Shown one piece after another: positions 2,448 through 27,784 of a stretch of DNA of 36,836 nucleotides. Source of the DNA: a virus (lineage: Duplodnaviria > Heunggongvirae > Uroviricota > Caudoviricetes); the IMG/VR virus record IMGVR_UViG_2585428015_000012. One strand, written 5' to 3'. Position 1 is the first letter of the stretch; each line of letters begins with the position of its first letter. A program made the translations under genes and the position numbers. The notes below the pieces were generated by a model. It saw only the letters and a list, made by a program, of their open reading frames with translations, was not told where the DNA came from and made no database searches.

Positions 2448-3535
2448 AAATTACCTGCGTAATGAGAAAAACTTGTACCATCCTGCCGTGAAAGCAGATC
2501 GCGCCCTGTATCCACTTTTCGCCCGTCGTCCCATCCACGGATAAACTCACCGCGTAAATCGGGAAGACGGAGGGTCGGGTAGACTCTGGCCAGAACAGGA
2601 TATTGTTCTTTTGTAAAGGCGCGCCCGTCGCACTTTAACCAGCCTGCTGGCGGTGTGGCAGTGGGCCACGGAACAGGTACACCAACGGGCAGCGCCGAGC
2701 CTTCCCCCAAACCAAGGTAATTGAGGACATCTTTTATACTGCCCTTAGCGATAATAGCGCGACCAATAGCTGTAAGGGTTGCCAGCTCTGCGCGGTCTGC
2801 TCCGGTAAAATAAGGCAACCGATCTGCTGCAGTGGCAAGTCCTGCCAGAGCAGTGAGCGTGGCATCTGCCGGTTGTTTTCCGTTTGCCAGATCGTATGCA
2901 GCCTTGACCGCTTTCGGTGTGGCGGCCAGTATTTCAGACGTGCTGTTGATGGCACTGCTCAATTGTACGGTGCCTTTTGCCGTCAGCGAGGCAGCAGGCA
3001 CTCCCGTTATCTGACTCCACGGGTGAGTGTGGCTGACGGGCGCCTTGCCGGCTGCAAGGTCGTATGCAGCCTTGACCGCCTTCGGCGTGGCAGCCTCAGT
3101 TTCTGATTGACTGTCCGTGGCGCTGCTCAGTTGTACGGTGCCTTTTGCCGTCAGTGAAGCCGCAGGCACTCCCGTTATCTGACTCCACGGGTGAGTGTGG
3201 CTGGCAGGCGCCTTGCCGGCTGCCAGGTCGTATGCAGCCTTGACCGCTTTTGGTGTGGCGGCCAGCGTTTCAGAGGTGCTGTTGGTGGCACTGCTCAGTT
3301 GGGTGAACCCCTTAGCTGTCAGTGTCGCGTCCGGGTGGTTACGGGAACGTACGTGTTCAGCCAGTGACTGTGCGGCTTCCTCCGTTTTCTTCTTCAGCCA
3401 TTTCGTCCTGTTTGCCAGTTGCCGGGGGGCTCGATTTGATATCCCGTCTGCACCACCCAGAACCGGATCTGATGTCTCCAGTTGATAGATATTTTCTTCC
3501 CACTTTTCTGTTTCATTCAGGTTTCCCATAATCAA
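2444..3535 (-). CDS. Phage tail fibre protein, 3'-truncated by the IS66 insertion (stop codon lies inside the IS terminal repeat)
   Basis: 363 aa ORF with three tandem ~56 aa repeats (TAKG.VQLSSAT.S.SET.AATPKAVKAAYDLA) and a C-terminal segment matching the phage tail-collar pattern (GWLKCDG...LPDLRGEFIRGW) that breaks off where the IS begins. Confidence 0.75.
   Translation of the reverse strand: MIMGNLNETEKWEENIYQLETSDPVLGGADGISNRAPRQLANRTKWLKKKTEEAAQSLAEHVRSRNHPDATLTAKGFTQLSSATNSTSETLAATPKAVKAAYDLAAGKAPASHTHPWSQITGVPAASLTAKGTVQLSSATDSQSETEAATPKAVKAAYDLAAGKAPVSHTHPWSQITGVPAASLTAKGTVQLSSAINSTSEILAATPKAVKAAYDLANGKQPADATLTALAGLATAADRLPYFTGADRAELATLTAIGRAIIAKGSIKDVLNYLGLGEGSALPVGVPVPWPTATPPAGWLKCDGRAFTKEQYPVLARVYPTLRLPDLRGEFIRGWDDGRKVDTGRDLLSRQDGTSFSHYAGNL
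2860..3340. repeat. Three tandem ~168 bp in-frame repeats inside the tail fibre gene
   Basis: Motif cgtatgcagccttgaccgc recurs at 2893, 3061 and 3229 (168 bp spacing); flanking sequence also repeats. Confidence 0.8.
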
Positions 3536-6195: not shown

Positions 6196-7346
6196 TTTTT
6201 CTTCTCCTTAATCACCGTCGATGTACTGCCATCCGGGTGATAAACCGTGAGTTTCTGAGTTTTTTGTTTTTTCCCTCTTGTGACTGGCCCCCGTGCCACT
6301 TCCAGCTCTGTGGTGTAGCCGCTGTTACGGTCAAACGCATGGCGGGCAGTGGTTATGAGCCATGGCCCGGATAACTGCCCAAAACTCACCAGTTCAATTT
6401 TGTTGCCTGCTGTCAGTTGAGGTGTTCCCGTCAGCGTCAGGGAGCCGTTCTGCTGGTATTCGTTATGTCTGGCCAGTGCTGAATCCGCTTTAATCCGGGC
6501 ACTGTCCGGGTCGCTGACGCGGCTGTTAACTTTAAGTGAGTCAGCGCTGGTAACCTTACCACCTTTGAGCTTTTTGTCGCTTTCACGGGTACCACCATCA
6601 GCTTCGTAGACGATCAGTTTTTTACTGCTGCTTTTCTGGTGTTTTACCTTTGCAGATTTATAGACCCGGTTGATGGTGTCACGCAGGGAAAAGCGGGCCA
6701 CATCCTGCGGTTTTAACTGCCTGACCGGCTCCTGACTGCGCAGTGTGGCCAGATGAGAAAAAATCAGCTGGTCACTGACCACTTTCACTGCATAACCATA
6801 CTCGCTGGCCAGCCGGCGCAGAAAACCCACGTCGGTTTCAGCATACTGGGTCACCCGGTCGATTCTGATGGACTCAATGCTGCCCACCAGTTTCAGCCGG
6901 TGCTTTCTGGCAATCCGCCCCGCAACAGCTGCCAGCGTGGTGTTCTCAAAACCACGACTGGTTTTAGTCCGCAGGGCACTGTTAACCGAGGTGGCCACCC
7001 CACGGATAGAAACAACGGAAGCGGGCGAACTCACTTCGATCTCGTCTATAGAGAACGTACCGCAGGACAGCAGCTTCTCGCCCTGATAGCCCATTTTCAG
7101 CGTCAGCGTGTCACCCTTGCCCGGATACCATTTATCCAGCCAGCGGCCATCGGTGTCGTCCAGCTCCACCTCAATGGTATCGGACTCATTTTTGATGTTA
7201 TCGCTCCAGGTCACACGGGTGACATAAGGCGCGATATCAGAGGTGATGTTTTTCTGCAGATACCACAGAGTGAACACCGGTGTCAGCACATCGCTGACGC
7301 CGGTTAACGCTGATGTGACTTGCGCAGTGCTGTTTATCTCAGCCAT
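6192..7346 (-). CDS. Phage late control D-like / baseplate hub protein (Mu P-like)
   Basis: 384 aa ORF following the tail X-like and tape measure genes in the conserved myovirus tail order. Confidence 0.65.
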   Translation of the reverse strand: MAEINSTAQVTSALTGVSDVLTPVFTLWYLQKNITSDIAPYVTRVTWSDNIKNESDTIEVELDDTDGRWLDKWYPGKGDTLTLKMGYQGEKLLSCGTFSIDEIEVSSPASVVSIRGVATSVNSALRTKTSRGFENTTLAAVAGRIARKHRLKLVGSIESIRIDRVTQYAETDVGFLRRLASEYGYAVKVVSDQLIFSHLATLRSQEPVRQLKPQDVARFSLRDTINRVYKSAKVKHQKSSSKKLIVYEADGGTRESDKKLKGGKVTSADSLKVNSRVSDPDSARIKADSALARHNEYQQNGSLTLTGTPQLTAGNKIELVSFGQLSGPWLITTARHAFDRNSGYTTELEVARGPVTRGKKQKTQKLTVYHPDGSTSTVIKEKKK

Positions 7347-24909: not shown

Positions 24910-25260
24910 TTAAAGCCCCATCGCAACAGCCAGGCAGACCGCTGCAACAATCAGTGCACGGCGGATTAACGCAGCAGAAAACACCAGGTGAAGGCCGGTC
25001 TGTACCGGGAAACGCCCTTCAGCCATCAGCCTGTCGTCATGTTTCAGGTACTGACCGGGACGGGCTTTGGGGAAGAGCGAACGGTCAAGCCAGTAACCCA
25101 GCACTGCTGCCAGCGTGATGAGTGCCAGCTTGTAGATCACAACAGGCAGCTGCTGTGGTGAGACCAGAGCGATGGTGCCCAGCAACAGCACTGAGGTCAG
25201 CAGCCAGCCGCTGAGGCGAGGTTTTTTAACAGGGGGAATGAATTTTTTCAGGTTTTTCAT
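24910..25260 (-). CDS. Two-transmembrane-helix small membrane protein, first gene of the lysis cassette (holin candidate)
   Basis: Start at ATG 25260 with AAGGAG 7 nt upstream; two hydrophobic segments; directly precedes the endolysin. Confidence 0.55.
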   Translation of the reverse strand: MKNLKKFIPPVKKPRLSGWLLTSVLLLGTIALVSPQQLPVVIYKLALITLAAVLGYWLDRSLFPKARPGQYLKHDDRLMAEGRFPVQTGLHLVFSAALIRRALIVAAVCLAVAMGL

Positions 25261-25390
25261 GTGTGTCTCCTTATCTGGTGGAGACAGCATCACAAATACA
25301 GGGCGCGAAGGATTTTAAAGCGCGTTAAGAGAGCCGGGGATACGGGATGTGCAGGATAAACGATGAATTATTCACAGAGGAGAATACGAT
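25261..25390. promoter_or_regulatory. Divergent intergenic region between the late operon and the plus-strand cargo genes
   Basis: 130 bp non-coding gap flanked by outward-facing genes, both with strong ribosome-binding sites; inverted repeat GTCTCC(N9)GGAGAC overlaps the ribosome-binding site of the lysis gene. Confidence 0.4.
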
Positions 25391-26119
25391 ATGACGCAGA
25401 CACTGAATCCGGTCATCACTGTCACCGTGTCCGGTCCTGTGGGCAGCGGTAAAAGTTACGTACTGGCGCGAATAGAGGAAGTGGTGAAACAGGAATTCGG
25501 AAACAGCGTCATTGTCGACGCCGCAGACGTGGACGGTGAGCGCCGTATGAGTGGGGATGATCTGAGCACATGGCAGAAACCACGGGCTGGCACAGTGATC
25601 AGGCTGGAGGAATACACGGGACAGGGCCTGTTGTCATACGGCGAGGAGCGTATCTGTCGGACGAATGAGCTGCTGGATGTTATATGCCCCACGGGCCGGC
25701 AACCCTGGATACTGCCCGATGCACTGCATGCCACCATTGCGGCACTGATGACAGTTTACGATCAGGAGCTGCTCATGAAGGAGTTACGTAAACTCACTGG
25801 TCAGTCAACAGAATGTTGTTCGTCCCCGAAGTACGGCAAACAGGAACACATCCCGATTAACCAGCCTCCCCGGTTCTTCGACGAATACCTTCTGACACCG
25901 GAAAATAAAGCTGAGCATGAAGAGATCAAAGCGGCGTTGTTCCGGGAAATCAGGAAGATTGCTGAAATGCAACTGGAGGGCGGGCTGGACAGAGTGATGG
26001 CGAGAGGAGAATGGGCATCGCTGTTTGAAAGAGTTTCCCCGGAATTACTTCCCCTCGCACTGGCTATCGGGATTATGCAGACAGCGGATAAACCTCACTT
26101 ACGTTCATTAAACACGTAA
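25391..26119 (+). CDS. P-loop (Walker A) protein of unknown function
   Basis: 242 aa; GAGGAG ribosome-binding site; Walker A motif VSGPVGSGKS at residues ~14-23, followed by IVDAAD; no confident family assignment. Confidence 0.6.
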   Translation: MTQTLNPVITVTVSGPVGSGKSYVLARIEEVVKQEFGNSVIVDAADVDGERRMSGDDLSTWQKPRAGTVIRLEEYTGQGLLSYGEERICRTNELLDVICPTGRQPWILPDALHATIAALMTVYDQELLMKELRKLTGQSTECCSSPKYGKQEHIPINQPPRFFDEYLLTPENKAEHEEIKAALFREIRKIAEMQLEGGLDRVMARGEWASLFERVSPELLPLALAIGIMQTADKPHLRSLNT

Positions 26120-26499
26120 CGCATAATCCGGGATACGCATTCAGCGATGACTGCATTTTCACCGGTTTTTACTGCATCCAGAAGTGACTCTTTAAATGGT
26201 ACGGGCCGGGGCTGCAGAAAGGTCGGCATGGCATTGAGCAGACAGAGCGTTTTTTCCGTGAGGACGACATCAGCCGCTCCCACAGCCAGCAACTGAGAGT
26301 AACGAATATAGCTGTTATCCCGAAGCCATATCAGCGTATCAATAAAACACCGGCACTTTTTCTGGTCGTGATCAACCTGGTCCGGGATATCGAAAAAACC
26401 AGAATAAATCAAAACCTGAGGTGCCGGATGCGTGTTCAGTAATCGGCAGAATATTTTGCCGGTGAGTACATAAAAATCATCATTTAAGGAGTGCATCAT
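26095..26499 (-). CDS. Hypothetical protein, convergent with the P-loop gene
   Basis: 134 aa ORF filling the 378 bp gap between the P-loop gene and the next plus-strand gene; 3' end overlaps the P-loop gene by 25 nt; weak ribosome-binding site. Confidence 0.4.
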   Translation of the reverse strand: MMHSLNDDFYVLTGKIFCRLLNTHPAPQVLIYSGFFDIPDQVDHDQKKCRCFIDTLIWLRDNSYIRYSQLLAVGAADVVLTEKTLCLLNAMPTFLQPRPVPFKESLLDAVKTGENAVIAECVSRIMRYVFNERK

Positions 26500-26713
26500 G
26501 AATCCCCGATTAACGTTAACAGAACATCAGCGCCGTGCTGAAGCAGTGAACAATGTTCTGGAAGATATTATCCGGTTATACCGCGGAGAACTGAGTGTCT
26601 GTCGTGCCGCTTTTCATTTTCAGGGAATACAAAAGCAGTTTGATACTTCTGTTTTTGCAGAAGGTATTACTTATGCCCTGGACCGGATAAGGTCAGAAAA
26701 TCGCCCCGGATAA
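26498..26713 (+). CDS. Hypothetical small protein (71 aa)
   Basis: ATG with AAGGAG 7 nt upstream; start is back-to-back with the minus-strand ORF start. Confidence 0.5.
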   Translation: MNPRLTLTEHQRRAEAVNNVLEDIIRLYRGELSVCRAAFHFQGIQKQFDTSVFAEGITYALDRIRSENRPG

Positions 26714-26768
26714 TCCCTAAACCACATTAACAGAAATCCCGCCATCCCTGCCGCATCATGAAAGAACG

Positions 26769-26798
26769 ACCAGCCCGGCACCCGAAAGCCGGGCTGGT
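26769..26798. other. Perfect 10 bp-stem hairpin (ACCAGCCCGG-N10-CCGGGCTGGT) between the 71 aa gene and dam
   Basis: Read directly from sequence; no U-tract on the plus strand, a partial one on the minus strand. Confidence 0.4.
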
Positions 26799-26903
26799 CA
26801 TCGCCCCACAGGAATGCGCTGTGAGCCGACCAAGGTTCAGTCAGTCTCGCGAGACCTGACCAGACTGCCATATTTTTTAATAATTGTAAAAGGCTTGCAG
26901 ATT

Positions 26904-27668
26904 ATGAAAATGCAGACATTACCCATCGTGCCGTGGATTGGTGGCAAACGCCGCCTTGCAAAACACATTCTGCCGCTGTTTCCGGCGCATGAATGTTATG
27001 TGGAGCCGTTTTGTGGGGCAGCAGCGCTCTATTTTCTTAAGACACCCGGCAAGATCGAAGTCATCAATGATATCAACGGTGAACTGGTGAATCTGTACCG
27101 GGTGGTAAAGCATCACCTGGAAGAATTTGTCCGCCAGTTCAAATGGGCGCTGGTCAGCCGTCAGATCTACAAATGGCTGCAGATCACCCCGGAAGAAACA
27201 CTGACGGATATCCAGCGTGCGGCACGGTTCTACTACCTTCAGAAGCAGGCGTTTGGCGGCAAGGTGGCAGAGCACAGCTTCGGTACCTCCACCACATCCC
27301 CGCCACGCTTCAACCTGCTACGTATTGAAGAAGAACTGTCAGCGGCACACCTGCGGCTTTCCAGAACAGTCATAGAACACATGGACTGGCAACAGTGCAT
27401 TGAGCGTTATGATCGTCCGCACACGCTGTTCTACTGCGACCCACCGTACCTGGGTACGGAAGGCTATGGTGTGGATTTTCCTGAAGGGAACTACTCGCGG
27501 CTGGCAGAGCTGGCCCGGTGCATCAGAGGAAAAATGATAATTTCGGTGAACGACATCCCGCAGATGCGCGAGGTGTTCACTGGACTGAACATACAGACAG
27601 TGAATATCAACTACAGTCTGGCGGGTAAACCCACGCCGCGCCGTGAACTGCTAATCTGCAACTTCTGA
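26904..27668 (+). CDS. DNA adenine methyltransferase (Dam family, N6-adenine)
   Basis: 254 aa; N-terminal AdoMet-binding region (IVPWIGGKRRL, EPFCGAAAL) and catalytic DPPY motif (FYCDPPYLGTEGY). Confidence 0.85.
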   Translation: MKMQTLPIVPWIGGKRRLAKHILPLFPAHECYVEPFCGAAALYFLKTPGKIEVINDINGELVNLYRVVKHHLEEFVRQFKWALVSRQIYKWLQITPEETLTDIQRAARFYYLQKQAFGGKVAEHSFGTSTTSPPRFNLLRIEEELSAAHLRLSRTVIEHMDWQQCIERYDRPHTLFYCDPPYLGTEGYGVDFPEGNYSRLAELARCIRGKMIISVNDIPQMREVFTGLNIQTVNINYSLAGKPTPRRELLICNF

Positions 27669-27675
27669 AACAAAA

Positions 27676-27698
27676 CCGGAAAGCACAATGCTTTCCGG
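27676..27698 (-). terminator. Intrinsic terminator hairpin (9 bp stem CCGGAAAGC-ACAAT-GCTTTCCGG) shared by convergent dam and repressor genes
   Basis: Perfect stem; on the minus strand it is followed by TTTTGTTTC, so it is best placed to terminate the repressor transcript. Confidence 0.5.
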
Positions 27699-27784
27699 TA
27701 AACCAAACAACTTCCACTATGTCACTGGCGATGTTTTCTGAAAGCATCCAGATCAACCACCTGTCCTTTGTGTCCGGGTCAGTA

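What the first reader, a model, noticed from the sequence alone, without database searches (positions are those of the whole stretch)
25391..26713. Three-gene cargo locus (P-loop protein + two small proteins) at the pivot between late and early modules
These three genes have no counterpart in the canonical Mu gene set and sit in the divergent region next to a Dam methylase and the immunity repressor. The first encodes a 242 aa protein whose only recognisable feature is an N-terminal Walker A motif (GPVGSGKS) on a domain that looks too short for a standard kinase or AAA fold. It converges on a 134 aa gene with 3' overlap, which is back-to-back with a 71 aa gene carrying an excellent ribosome-binding site. 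The stretch looks somewhat AT-richer than the structural genes by eye (roughly 43-53% GC in two 100 nt samples counted), which fits horizontally acquired cargo. This layout is typical of prophage-borne superinfection-exclusion, abortive-infection or toxin-antitoxin modules, and is my best candidate for an undescribed system in this window.
Basis: partly seen in the sequence, partly recalled or inferred. Interest (0 to 1): 0.7.

Follow-up and report, generated by a model that had tools for sequence, protein, structure and literature searches.

The report
Uncharacterised mosaic cargo locus in prophage
The three genes are real, uncharacterised accessory cargo in a swap-prone slot of a BcepMu-like E. 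coli prophage common in the ST131 clone; they combine two separately mobile units and match no known defence or toxin-antitoxin family, so their role is untested.

Summary
All sequence-level observations hold: three ORFs at the stated coordinates, Walker A motif, 25-nt convergent overlap, head-to-head starts and a strong RBS. Only orfB and orfC are AT-richer. The window is a Bcepmuvirus prophage (100% identical to phage PhiKM over the locus; shares a tail-fibre crossover site with EC958 Phi2), not canonical Mu.

The holin-repressor slot is a genuine variable hotspot in E. coli. The locus is a composite, not one uniform three-gene system.

- **Unit 1:** a 76-aa phage-specific mini Walker-A domain that sits beside the holin and is fused to many different C-termini.
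- **Unit 2:** a conserved triad of the orfA C-terminal module, a winged-helix protein (orfB) and a small helical protein (orfC). It recurs in four divergent BcepMu-like lineages. In Serratia the C-module is a stand-alone 89-aa gene with no P-loop.

An orfB-family gene paired with a small ORF through a CATG start overlap also occurs in 43 of 43 P2-like viral contigs, inside the known gpA-gpQ defence hotspot.

No Pfam, NCBIfam or PADLOC family matches any of the three. A classical toxin-antitoxin pair is disfavoured.

My best guess, which is inference, is a lysogenic-conversion module. OrfB would be made in the lysogen and switched off by the opposite-strand genes when the phage goes lytic. Function is untested.

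The parts
25261..25390 (.). 130-bp divergent intergenic region between holin and orfA (GC 0.469). It must hold the late/lysis promoter and the orfA promoter.
   Evidence: the consensus scan found no sigma-70 site here
25391..26119 (+). orfA, 242 aa, a mosaic protein (PHROG 3787, unknown function)
25391..25618 (+). orfA N-domain (aa 1-76): strand, Walker A (GPVGSGKS), helix, plus about 40 aa. It is a phage-specific mini P-loop module fused to many different C-termini or found alone.
25916..26074 (+). orfA C-module (aa 176-228, motif D/R-x-V-x-x-R-x-x-W-E-x-L/F). This is the part of orfA that travels with orfB/orfC.
   Evidence: It is a stand-alone 89-aa gene in Serratia prophages, 44-45% identical. 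It is present in the L033 and L035 orfA-like proteins that also converge on orfB-family genes.
26095..26119 (.). 25-nt convergent 3' overlap of orfA and orfB
   Evidence: The equivalent overlaps are 37 nt in Serratia, 4 nt in L033 and 54 nt in L035.
26095..26499 (-). orfB, 134 aa (probably 133 aa from the ATG at 26496): a winged-helix domain plus a C-terminal helical hairpin (PHROG 2266).
26486..26500 (+). orfC Shine-Dalgarno (AAGGAG) and ATG, encoded on the reverse of orfB codons 2-4; head-to-head start junction (CATCATG).
   Evidence: The same abutting geometry appears in Serratia, and an exact 2-nt CATG overlap in 43 of 43 P2-like loci.
26498..26713 (+). orfC, 71 aa; sequence pattern suggests a small helical protein, no structure was predicted (PHROG 4490)
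   Evidence: It is 31% identical to the Serratia counterpart. pN/pS is 0.3-0.4.
26774..26797 (.). GC-rich 12-bp hairpin between orfC and dam. It looks more like a terminator on the minus strand. Context only; its role is unresolved.
26904..27668 (+). Dam-type (D12) orphan methyltransferase, co-directional with orfA and orfC. It is a neighbour and not shown to be part of the unit: it is present without orfABC in strain KE50 and absent from the P2-like loci.
   Evidence: If the window is EC958 Phi2 (one shared crossover site), this gene is probably M.EcoMIV, which is poorly transcribed in the lysogen (PMC4659465); the sequences were not compared.

Best explanation
The locus is accessory cargo in the variable holin-repressor slot of a BcepMu-like prophage, built from two mobile units.

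Unit 1 is a 76-aa Walker-A 'mini P-loop' domain. It sits beside the holin and has been recombined onto many C-termini. It most likely binds a nucleotide or phosphate ligand, perhaps as an oligomer, rather than acting as a full NTPase.

Unit 2 is a conserved triad. A winged-helix protein gene (orfB) is nested antisense between two plus-strand genes for small helical proteins: the orfA C-module and orfC. Those two genes overlap or abut both ends of orfB.

Proposed mechanism (inference). OrfB is the lysogen-expressed product. It lies on the repressor strand here, and in P2-like phages it has the orientation of old and tin. It would act by binding a competitor-phage or host nucleic acid or protein, not by catalysis. 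When the prophage turns lytic, plus-strand transcription of orfA, orfC and dam would silence orfB by convergent and 5'-antisense interference. The small proteins may also neutralise OrfB protein. The result would be an exclusion module with a built-in self-immunity switch.

What is shown: the anatomy, conservation, mobility, winged-helix fold and hotspot context. What is inferred: expression timing, protein binding and the exclusion phenotype.
For: - **Variable slot.** Of 5,426 complete E. coli genomes, 636 match the 3.6-kb region spanning the SLT lysin, holin, cargo slot, dam and repressor, 499 carry orfC, 492 carry full orfB and 483 carry full orfA. Others have no cargo or different cargo in the slot.
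- **Independent mobility of the P-loop domain.** It is fused to different C-termini across the 60 representatives, which range from 41 to 2018 aa and include partial sequences. It sits beside the holin in other prophages and occurs in large phage contigs. At least 84 E. coli genomes have the N-terminal part with other cargo.
- **Triad conservation.** The layout C-module -> <- orfB <- -> small ORF is found in the window, in Serratia (C-module alone, 89 aa) and in L033. L035 has the C-module converging on an orfB-family gene, but its small ORF was not confirmed. orfB identity falls as low as 27-54%.
- **Pair coupling.** All 43 P2-like IMG/VR loci carry orfB' plus a small ORF with an exact CATG start overlap, at 55-100% identity. 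They lie in the gpA-gpQ hotspot next to a retron-VI RT, a Fic/PDC-S04 protein, a YobI-ATPase or an AAA_15 protein (PMC9122126).
- **Orientation.** orfB' has the orientation of P2 old and tin. Here orfB shares the repressor strand.
- **Silent dam.** The co-directional dam, probably the same gene as M.EcoMIV, is poorly transcribed in the EC958 lysogen (PMC4659465; identity rests on the crossover match).
- **Foreign composition.** orfB and orfC have a lower GC content than the phage backbone.
- **Fold.** orfB is a winged-helix protein.
- **Base rate.** 15-32% of unknown P2-hotspot proteins are predicted antiviral, and 6 of 8 unknown P4 loci tested conferred defence (bioRxiv 10.64898/2026.02.27.708500).
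Against: - No phenotype or expression data exist for orfA, orfB or orfC.
- No effector domain, enzyme or TM segment is present.
- There is no PADLOC hit, even for the P2-like versions.
- The orfB family is acidic (pI 4.5-5.4), so DNA binding is uncertain.
- No convincing sigma-70 promoters were found for orfB or orfC.
- Homology between the Mu-type orfC and the P2-type small ORF is undetectable. They may be analogues only.
- In P2-like phages the pair stays constant while neighbouring cargo varies, which also fits a phage-internal function.
- orfB is deleted or frameshifted in a few prophages without loss of orfA or orfC.
- Co-occurrence counts in E. coli are dominated by one clonal ST131 prophage.
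Confidence: 0.33

Rival explanations
1. Counter-defence or host-takeover island. orfA, orfC and dam form a plus-strand, lytic-phase unit of small acidic binders plus an anti-restriction methylase. orfB would be its antisense-encoded regulator, analogous to the Aca regulators of anti-CRISPR loci.
For: - The proteins are small, acidic and have no enzymatic domains.
- They are co-directional with an orphan Dam that is silent in the lysogen.
- N-domain relatives occur in contigs of 141 kb and 20 kb that look like large phage genomes (virion-protein, DUF7941 and SNF2-helicase genes; their lifestyle was not determined).
- In strain B771 the deletion of orfB leaves a compact orfA-orfC-dam array.
Against: - The P2-like pair has no Dam and sits in a hotspot dominated by defence genes.
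- Known anti-defence genes are rare in P2 elements: 28 of 1,511.
- Dam occurs without orfABC in strain KE50.
- No similarity to any known anti-defence protein was detected. AntiDefenseFinder and dbAPIS were not available.
Confidence: 0.2
2. Phage-internal regulatory module. orfB (winged helix) and its small partners would tune the prophage's own programme, for example dam expression, late or lysis transcription beside the holin promoter, or lysogeny maintenance. There would be no role in inter-phage conflict.
For: - The winged-helix fold.
- A classic divergent regulator-target geometry.
- The locus lies between the late promoter region and the immunity region.
- The pair is constant in P2-like phages whose neighbouring cargo varies.
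- An 18-bp near-palindrome lies 37-54 bp upstream of orfC and is conserved in Serratia.
Against: - The module is absent from many otherwise similar prophages and from most P2-like phages in the phage collection: only 10 records have it. It is therefore dispensable.
- It has moved between unrelated phage families with different regulatory circuits.
- The winged-helix domain is acidic.
- The palindrome lies in conserved coding sequence, so its conservation may only reflect the protein.
Confidence: 0.17
3. ATP-dependent abortive-infection or defence system using all three genes. The P-loop protein would be the sensor or motor and orfB/orfC the effector and regulator.
For: - The Walker A G, G and K residues are invariant across the family.
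- The locus lies in a hotspot.
- There are weak sub-threshold PADLOC and Pfam P-loop hits.
Against: - The P-loop domain is only 76 aa, with no complete NTPase core.
- It is dispensable for the triad: Serratia has the C-module only, and P2-like phages have neither part of orfA.
- It also occurs with unrelated cargo.
- Some family members carry GKN instead of GKS/T.
Confidence: 0.12
4. Toxin-antitoxin or addiction pair made of orfB and orfC.
For: - The two genes are tightly coupled: 43 of 43 P2-like loci and 492 of 499 E. coli genomes.
- Both products are small.
- The pair lies on mobile elements.
Against: - The genes are head-to-head, not an operon.
- orfC persists with orfB deleted (7 genomes) or frameshifted.
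- An intact orfB' occurs without an abutting small ORF in the Kluyvera locus L029.
- There is no toxin-like domain, and no TA family hit in Pfam or PADLOC.
Confidence: 0.08

Closest known systems
P2 old/tin lysogenic-conversion (phage-exclusion) genes in the gpA-gpQ hotspot of P2-like phages (Rousset et al. 2022, PMC9122126)
   Same: orfB-family genes of P2-like phages occupy this same hotspot, in the same orientation as old and tin: opposite to gene A and read from the cos side. They are accessory, horizontally mobile, and co-resident with recognised defence systems.
   Different: There is no sequence or domain relation to Old (an ATPase-nuclease) or Tin. No effector domain is present. A phenotype has not been tested, and the sequences are not among the systems tested in that paper. 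In the window the module sits in a different phage family and slot.
Divergent regulator-target pairs and anti-CRISPR/Aca loci of Mu-like Pseudomonas phages (comparison from general knowledge)
   Same: A small protein of unknown fold sits next to a helix-turn-helix-type protein in a fixed accessory slot of a transposable phage. The divergent geometry suggests reciprocal control.
   Different: Aca genes lie downstream in the same operon as the acr gene. Here the winged-helix gene is antisense, with start codons abutting. No homology to Aca or Acr families was detected. The winged-helix domain is acidic.
P-loop NTPases, and engineered minimal 'phosphate-loop' prototypes (PDB 6c2u)
   Same: A genuine strand-Walker A-helix element. 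The family profile hits ABC, kinase and PilT Walker A segments and the designed phosphate-loop protein 6c2u (E 7e-5).
BcepMu gp18-gp20 (cargo between repressor gp17 and holin gp21 in the type phage)
   Same: Same genomic slot between the immunity repressor and the lysis cassette.
   Different: The genes are unrelated and all lie on the holin strand. tblastn of orfA and orfC finds no phage record other than PhiKM.

Membership tests
P-loop NTPase (any class: AAA+, ABC, KAP, kinase-GTPase) | Walker A motif GxxxxGK[ST] after a beta-strand | tested here: met
   GPVGSGKS at aa 15-22. G15, G20 and K21 are invariant and S22 is nearly invariant in the family. A few members have GKN instead.
P-loop NTPase (any class: AAA+, ABC, KAP, kinase-GTPase) | Complete alpha/beta core of about 150 aa or more with a Walker B acidic residue, recognisable by family HMM or fold | tested here: not met
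Known anti-phage defence systems (PADLOC-DB v2.0.0) | Significant match of at least one component to a defence-system HMM | tested here: not met
   orfA's best hit has E 0.003 and covers the P-loop segment only. orfB, orfC and their Serratia and P2-like counterparts give no hits at E <= 1. DefenseFinder was not available.
Type II toxin-antitoxin module | Co-directional bicistronic operon; the toxin is not viable without its antitoxin; recognisable toxin or antitoxin fold | tested here: not met
   The genes are head-to-head. Each gene occurs naturally without the other. No TA family hits were found. Toxicity was not tested experimentally.
Winged-helix (wHTH) DNA-binding transcription regulators (MarR/Rrf2/PadR-like) | Winged-helix fold | tested here: met
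Winged-helix (wHTH) DNA-binding transcription regulators (MarR/Rrf2/PadR-like) | Family HMM match and a basic DNA-binding surface or demonstrated operator | tested here: inconclusive
DUF2513 (UniRef label on the Serratia homologue P0031) | Match to Pfam PF10711 | tested here: not met
   No DUF2513 hit for any of 30 family members, including P0031, at E <= 1.
T7 gp5.5/5.7-like (HHpred note in the phage Midge annotation) | Profile similarity to T7 gp5.5 or gp5.7 | tested here: not met
   hhalign of the orfB family against T7 gp5.5 and gp5.7 gives probabilities of 0.1% and 0.3%. This is a weak test because the template was a single sequence.
P2-type gpA-gpQ hotspot cargo | Located between replication gene A and portal gene Q of a P2-like phage; present in only some phages | tested here: met
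   This holds for the orfB'/small-ORF pair, not for the window locus itself. The window locus occupies the analogous variable slot of a BcepMu-like phage.
Mu com-mom-type unit (small translational activator upstream of a DNA-modification gene) | Zinc-finger Com-like protein immediately upstream of, or overlapping, the modification gene | tested here: not met
   orfC has a single Cys and no zinc-finger motif. It is separated from dam by 190 bp containing a hairpin. The small ORFs of P2-like phages have no methylase downstream.

The most novel reading that the evidence does not exclude
orfB, its small head-to-head partner and (in BcepMu-like phages) the orfA C-module would form a previously unrecognised conflict system of temperate enterobacterial phages. 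It would be present in both P2-like and BcepMu-like hotspots, including the pandemic ST131 prophage Phi2. Its hallmark would be a winged-helix gene nested antisense between its modulators, so that lysogenic and lytic expression exclude each other. The attached 76-aa domain would be a natural, autonomously folding minimal Walker-A nucleotide-binding module, the smallest P-loop domain family in nature.
Probability: 0.22. Interest if true: 0.7.

Novelty: new variant of a known kind. Interest (0 to 1): 0.5.

Why it matters
The module sits in about 9% of complete E. coli genomes (499 of 5,426), largely pandemic ST131. A related pair is very common in P2-like prophages; two 100%-identity sequences are each seen on at least 1,000 contigs. 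No function, family name or defence annotation exists for any component.

If it proves to be an exclusion or counter-defence module, it would add a system with no enzymatic effector and an unusual antisense-nested control architecture. It would also extend the 'hotspot' idea from P2 and P4 to BcepMu-like transposable phages.

The 76-aa Walker-A domain would interest protein-evolution researchers as a natural counterpart of engineered P-loop prototypes.

If it is only a dispensable regulatory moron, the finding is ordinary.

Tried and rejected
- **Family scans.** Pfam, NCBIfam, PADLOC and PHROGs gave only unknown-function PHROGs for all three proteins and for their Serratia and P2-like counterparts.
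- **Solved structures.** Sequence search of the PDB gave nothing for orfB and only the generic Walker A segment for the orfA N-domain.
- **T7 gp5.5/5.7.** The similarity claimed in the phage Midge annotation was not reproduced.
- **DUF2513 label.** Not reproduced.
- **Genome scan with the N-domain.** The search pattern was too generic and returned only one relevant locus.
- **Paralogy of orfC and the orfA C-module.** hhalign gave E 0.004 and probability 8%, which is inconclusive.
- **Homology of Mu-type orfC to the P2-type small ORF.** Not detectable. An earlier apparent match was a self-match artefact and was discarded.
- **LexA boxes.** None at the orfB/orfC junction. The only good box lies upstream of a 66-aa gene next to gpA in L031 and L032.
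- **Promoter scan.** No convincing promoters for orfA, orfB or orfC.
- **Rfam.** No family anywhere in the window.
- **Literature.** No paper mentions the WP accessions or PHROG ids. The sequences are absent from the Rousset 2022 tested-system tables.
- **ORF-calling script.** The first version mis-set start codons and undercounted the small ORFs. It was replaced by a homology-anchored analysis.
Full report

| ORF | Strand and coordinates | Length |
|---|---|---|
| orfA | + 25391-26119 | 242 aa |
| orfB | - 26095-26499 | 134 aa |
| orfC | + 26498-26713 | 71 aa |

- orfA has GPVGSGKS at residues 15-22.
- orfA and orfB converge with a 25-nt overlap.
- The orfB and orfC ATGs overlap by 2 nt (CATCATG).
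- orfC has an AAGGAG Shine-Dalgarno sequence 6 nt upstream of its ATG.
- The family alignment and a GGGGA Shine-Dalgarno sequence suggest orfB really starts at its second ATG (26496). That leaves a 1-nt gap to orfC, the same as in Serratia.
- To the left lie the holin (Holin_2-3) and an SLT transglycosylase. To the right lie a D12 Dam methylase and an HTH repressor.

GC content of the region is 0.502 against a window mean of 0.551. The drop comes from orfB (0.462) and orfC (0.444). The orfA N-domain (0.561) matches the phage backbone. Each ORF has a PHROG family of unknown function. pN/pS between E. coli variants is 0.2-0.4 for orfC and for the N-domain and C-terminal segment of orfA; orfB was not tested this way.

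**2. What the element is.**
- The locus region queried (window 25200-26900) is 100% identical to Escherichia phage PhiKM (Bcepmuvirus). Part or all of it is present in 633-636 of 5,426 complete E. coli genomes, many of them O25b:H4-ST131.
- A tail-fibre invertase crossover site published for EC958 prophage Phi2 occurs at 2702-2727 (PMC4134206). This one match suggests the window is a Phi2-type prophage, in which case the adjacent Dam is probably M.EcoMIV; the two sequences were not compared directly. M.EcoMIV was poorly transcribed in the lysogen, and no methylation motif was assigned to it (PMC4659465).
- In BcepMu itself, the slot between repressor gp17 and holin gp21 holds unrelated genes gp18-20.

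**3. The slot is a hotspot.** Related E. coli prophages share the same lysis cassette and early region but differ between holin and repressor.

| Strain | Content of the slot |
|---|---|
| KE50 | Dam plus a KwaA-like protein and an NA37 nucleoid-associated protein; no orfABC |
| AVS0754 | A 158-aa N-terminal orfA fragment plus two unrelated minus-strand genes |
| A24 | A 128-aa fragment plus a protein resembling a 2TM effector |
| 503829 | A DUF2441 protein |

Counts among complete E. coli genomes: orfC in 499; orfB at 80% coverage or more in 492; orfA with any match in 583, and full length in 483.

**4. orfA is a mosaic.**
- An exhaustive HMMER scan of 1.84 billion representatives found only 60 relatives.
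- Beyond the close E. coli copies, the match is confined to aa 1-76. That segment is followed by many unrelated C-termini or stands alone; the listed proteins range from 41 to 2018 aa and include partial sequences.
- G15, G20 and K21 are invariant. S22, E50, W61 and P64 are nearly invariant.
- AlphaFold is confident only for this domain: pLDDT is about 90 there and below 50 elsewhere.
- The family profile matches only the Walker A strand-loop-helix of ordinary NTPases, and also the engineered 'phosphate-loop protein' 6c2u.
- The domain gene keeps its place, divergent from the holin, in other BcepMu-like prophages. Distant members lie in large phage contigs.

**5. The conserved unit is the orfA C-module plus orfB plus orfC.**
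- *Serratia.* In Serratia BcepMu-like prophages, the gene that converges on and overlaps orfB (54% identity) is an 89-aa protein. It corresponds only to orfA residues 176-228 (44-45% identity) and has no P-loop. An orfC-like 73-aa gene (31% identity) and Dam follow.
- *Other lineages.* In two further lineages (L033/34 and L035/36), orfA-like proteins ending in the same C-module again converge on orfB-family genes (HMM E 4e-22 and 6e-18). In L033 a 69-aa ORF follows with a 2-nt start overlap.
- *Contrast.* The four E. coli variants examined without the C-module have no orfB.
- *Paralogy.* orfC and the C-module may be distant paralogues, but the test was inconclusive.

**6. orfB.**
- The AF2 model (pLDDT 76.5) shows a winged-helix domain plus a C-terminal helical hairpin.
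- The family is restricted to Enterobacterales. Most members are acidic and none has a TM segment.
- No Pfam, NCBIfam or PADLOC family matches.

**7. A related pair in P2-like phages.**
- orfB homologues of about 31% identity (143 aa) occur in phages Midge, FSL SP-004 and ST147-VIM1phi7.1, and in many prophages.
- In all 43 P2-like IMG/VR loci retrieved, the gene is paired head-to-head with a 60-64-aa ORF through an exact CATG start overlap. Identities range from 55 to 100%.
- The pair lies in the gpA-gpQ hotspot described by Rousset et al. (PMC9122126). Its neighbours include a retron-VI reverse transcriptase, a Fic/PDC-S04 protein, a YobI-ATPase or an AAA_15 protein.
- It has the orientation of the P2 exclusion genes old and tin.
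- It was not among the systems tested in that paper.
- The P2-type small ORF shows no detectable homology to Mu-type orfC. The C-module is absent from these loci.

**8. Exceptions that bear on toxin-antitoxin models.**
- orfB is deleted, with orfA and orfC intact, in strain B771 and about six other genomes.
- orfB is frameshifted in strain PK8275.
- A Kluyvera P2-like prophage has an intact orfB' with no abutting small ORF.

**9. Interpretation.**

Shown:
- The locus is accessory and horizontally mobile.
- It is a composite of two units.
- The triad and the pair keep a conserved antisense-nested geometry.
- orfB has a winged-helix fold.
- The locus sits in hotspot context.
- It matches no known family.

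Inferred:
- OrfB is the lysogen-expressed product. It lies on the repressor strand and has the old/tin orientation.
- The plus-strand genes orfA, orfC and dam are lytic-phase genes. The basis is that dam, probably the same gene as M.EcoMIV, is silent in the EC958 lysogen.
- Because each gene's Shine-Dalgarno sequence and promoter must lie inside its partner, and the 3' ends overlap, transcription of one strand should suppress the other.
- The small proteins may also bind OrfB.

I therefore favour a lysogenic-conversion (exclusion) module with built-in self-control, at confidence about 0.33. The rivals are a counter-defence island with dam (0.2), a phage-internal regulator (0.17), an ATP-dependent defence system using the P-loop (0.12) and a toxin-antitoxin pair (0.08). 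Base rates from a 2026 preprint temper the defence reading: 15-32% of unknown P2-hotspot proteins are predicted antiviral.

**10. Verdict.** The locus is a genuinely uncharacterised and common prophage cargo with an unusual architecture, but no function has been demonstrated. Interest is moderate (0.5). In terms of novelty it is a new variant of a known kind, namely prophage hotspot cargo.

Noticed in passing
window 26755-26880 (minus strand); hairpin 26774-26797; promoter-like site 26910-26883 (-): A strongly structured minus-strand element (MFE -57.5 kcal/mol, z = -4.3) ends in a 12-bp GC hairpin followed by a U-rich tail. Together with a minus-strand sigma-70-like site, it could give a transcript of about 110 nt antisense to the dam leader. 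It may be an antisense regulator of dam, or only a bidirectional terminator. There is no Rfam match.
   Followed up: partly
window 2702-2727: This matches the published 5' crossover site of the invertible tail-fibre segment of EC958 prophage Phi2, with the hybrid half-site GGTTTGGGGGAA. The window is therefore a Phi2-type ST131 prophage, possibly with the segment in the alternative orientation (PMC4134206).
   Followed up: partly
window 26904-27668 (dam): If the window is the EC958 Phi2 prophage (suggested by one shared crossover site), this gene is probably M.EcoMIV. That enzyme was reported as poorly transcribed in the lysogen and has no assigned methylation motif. REBASE calls it a putative type IIA enzyme rather than a GATC Dam (PMC4659465).
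   Followed up: partly
window 26444-26461: An 18-bp near-perfect palindrome, CGGCAGAATATTTTGCCG, lies inside the orfB 5' coding region, 37-54 bp upstream of the orfC ATG. An equivalent palindrome is present in the Serratia locus (L019 7034-7055). It could be an operator, or only a consequence of the conserved GKIFCR codons.
   Followed up: partly
L006, L007, L008, L009, L013 (same slot in other prophages): Alternative cargo in the holin-repressor slot includes a KwaA-like 401-aa protein with an NA37 nucleoid-associated protein (KE50), a protein resembling a 2TM effector (A24), a DUF2441 protein (503829), and a coiled-coil plus zinc-ribbon 157-aa protein (L013). None is a complete known defence system.
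   Followed up: partly
L031 and L032, position 6724-6739: A near-consensus LexA box, CTGTATGCATATACAG, lies upstream of a 66-aa gene between gpA and orfB' in 186-like Serratia prophages. This suggests an SOS-controlled DinI/Tum-like gene next to the pair.
   Followed up: no
NZ_CP015085.1 (E. coli O25b:H4), protein P0174: The same ST131 genome that carries the BcepMu-type orfB (hit H39) also encodes a P2-type orfB' paralogue. One host can therefore hold both versions of the pair.
   Followed up: no
orfA family proteins P0111-P0137: Short helical modules are extensively shuffled among orfA-like proteins. Examples are 'W-x-LPDA...YD..L..ELRK', also found at orfA aa 105-137, and 'DDL-DRPVP-HIQ-LM-KLGISFEEYQETDLQPVVDLVNWAL'. 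A subgroup carries GKN instead of GKS in the Walker A motif.
   Followed up: partly
window 27675-27699: An 11-bp-stem terminator-like hairpin lies between the convergent dam and repressor genes. Only its minus-strand reading was reported. It would end the repressor transcript before it runs antisense into dam.
   Followed up: no
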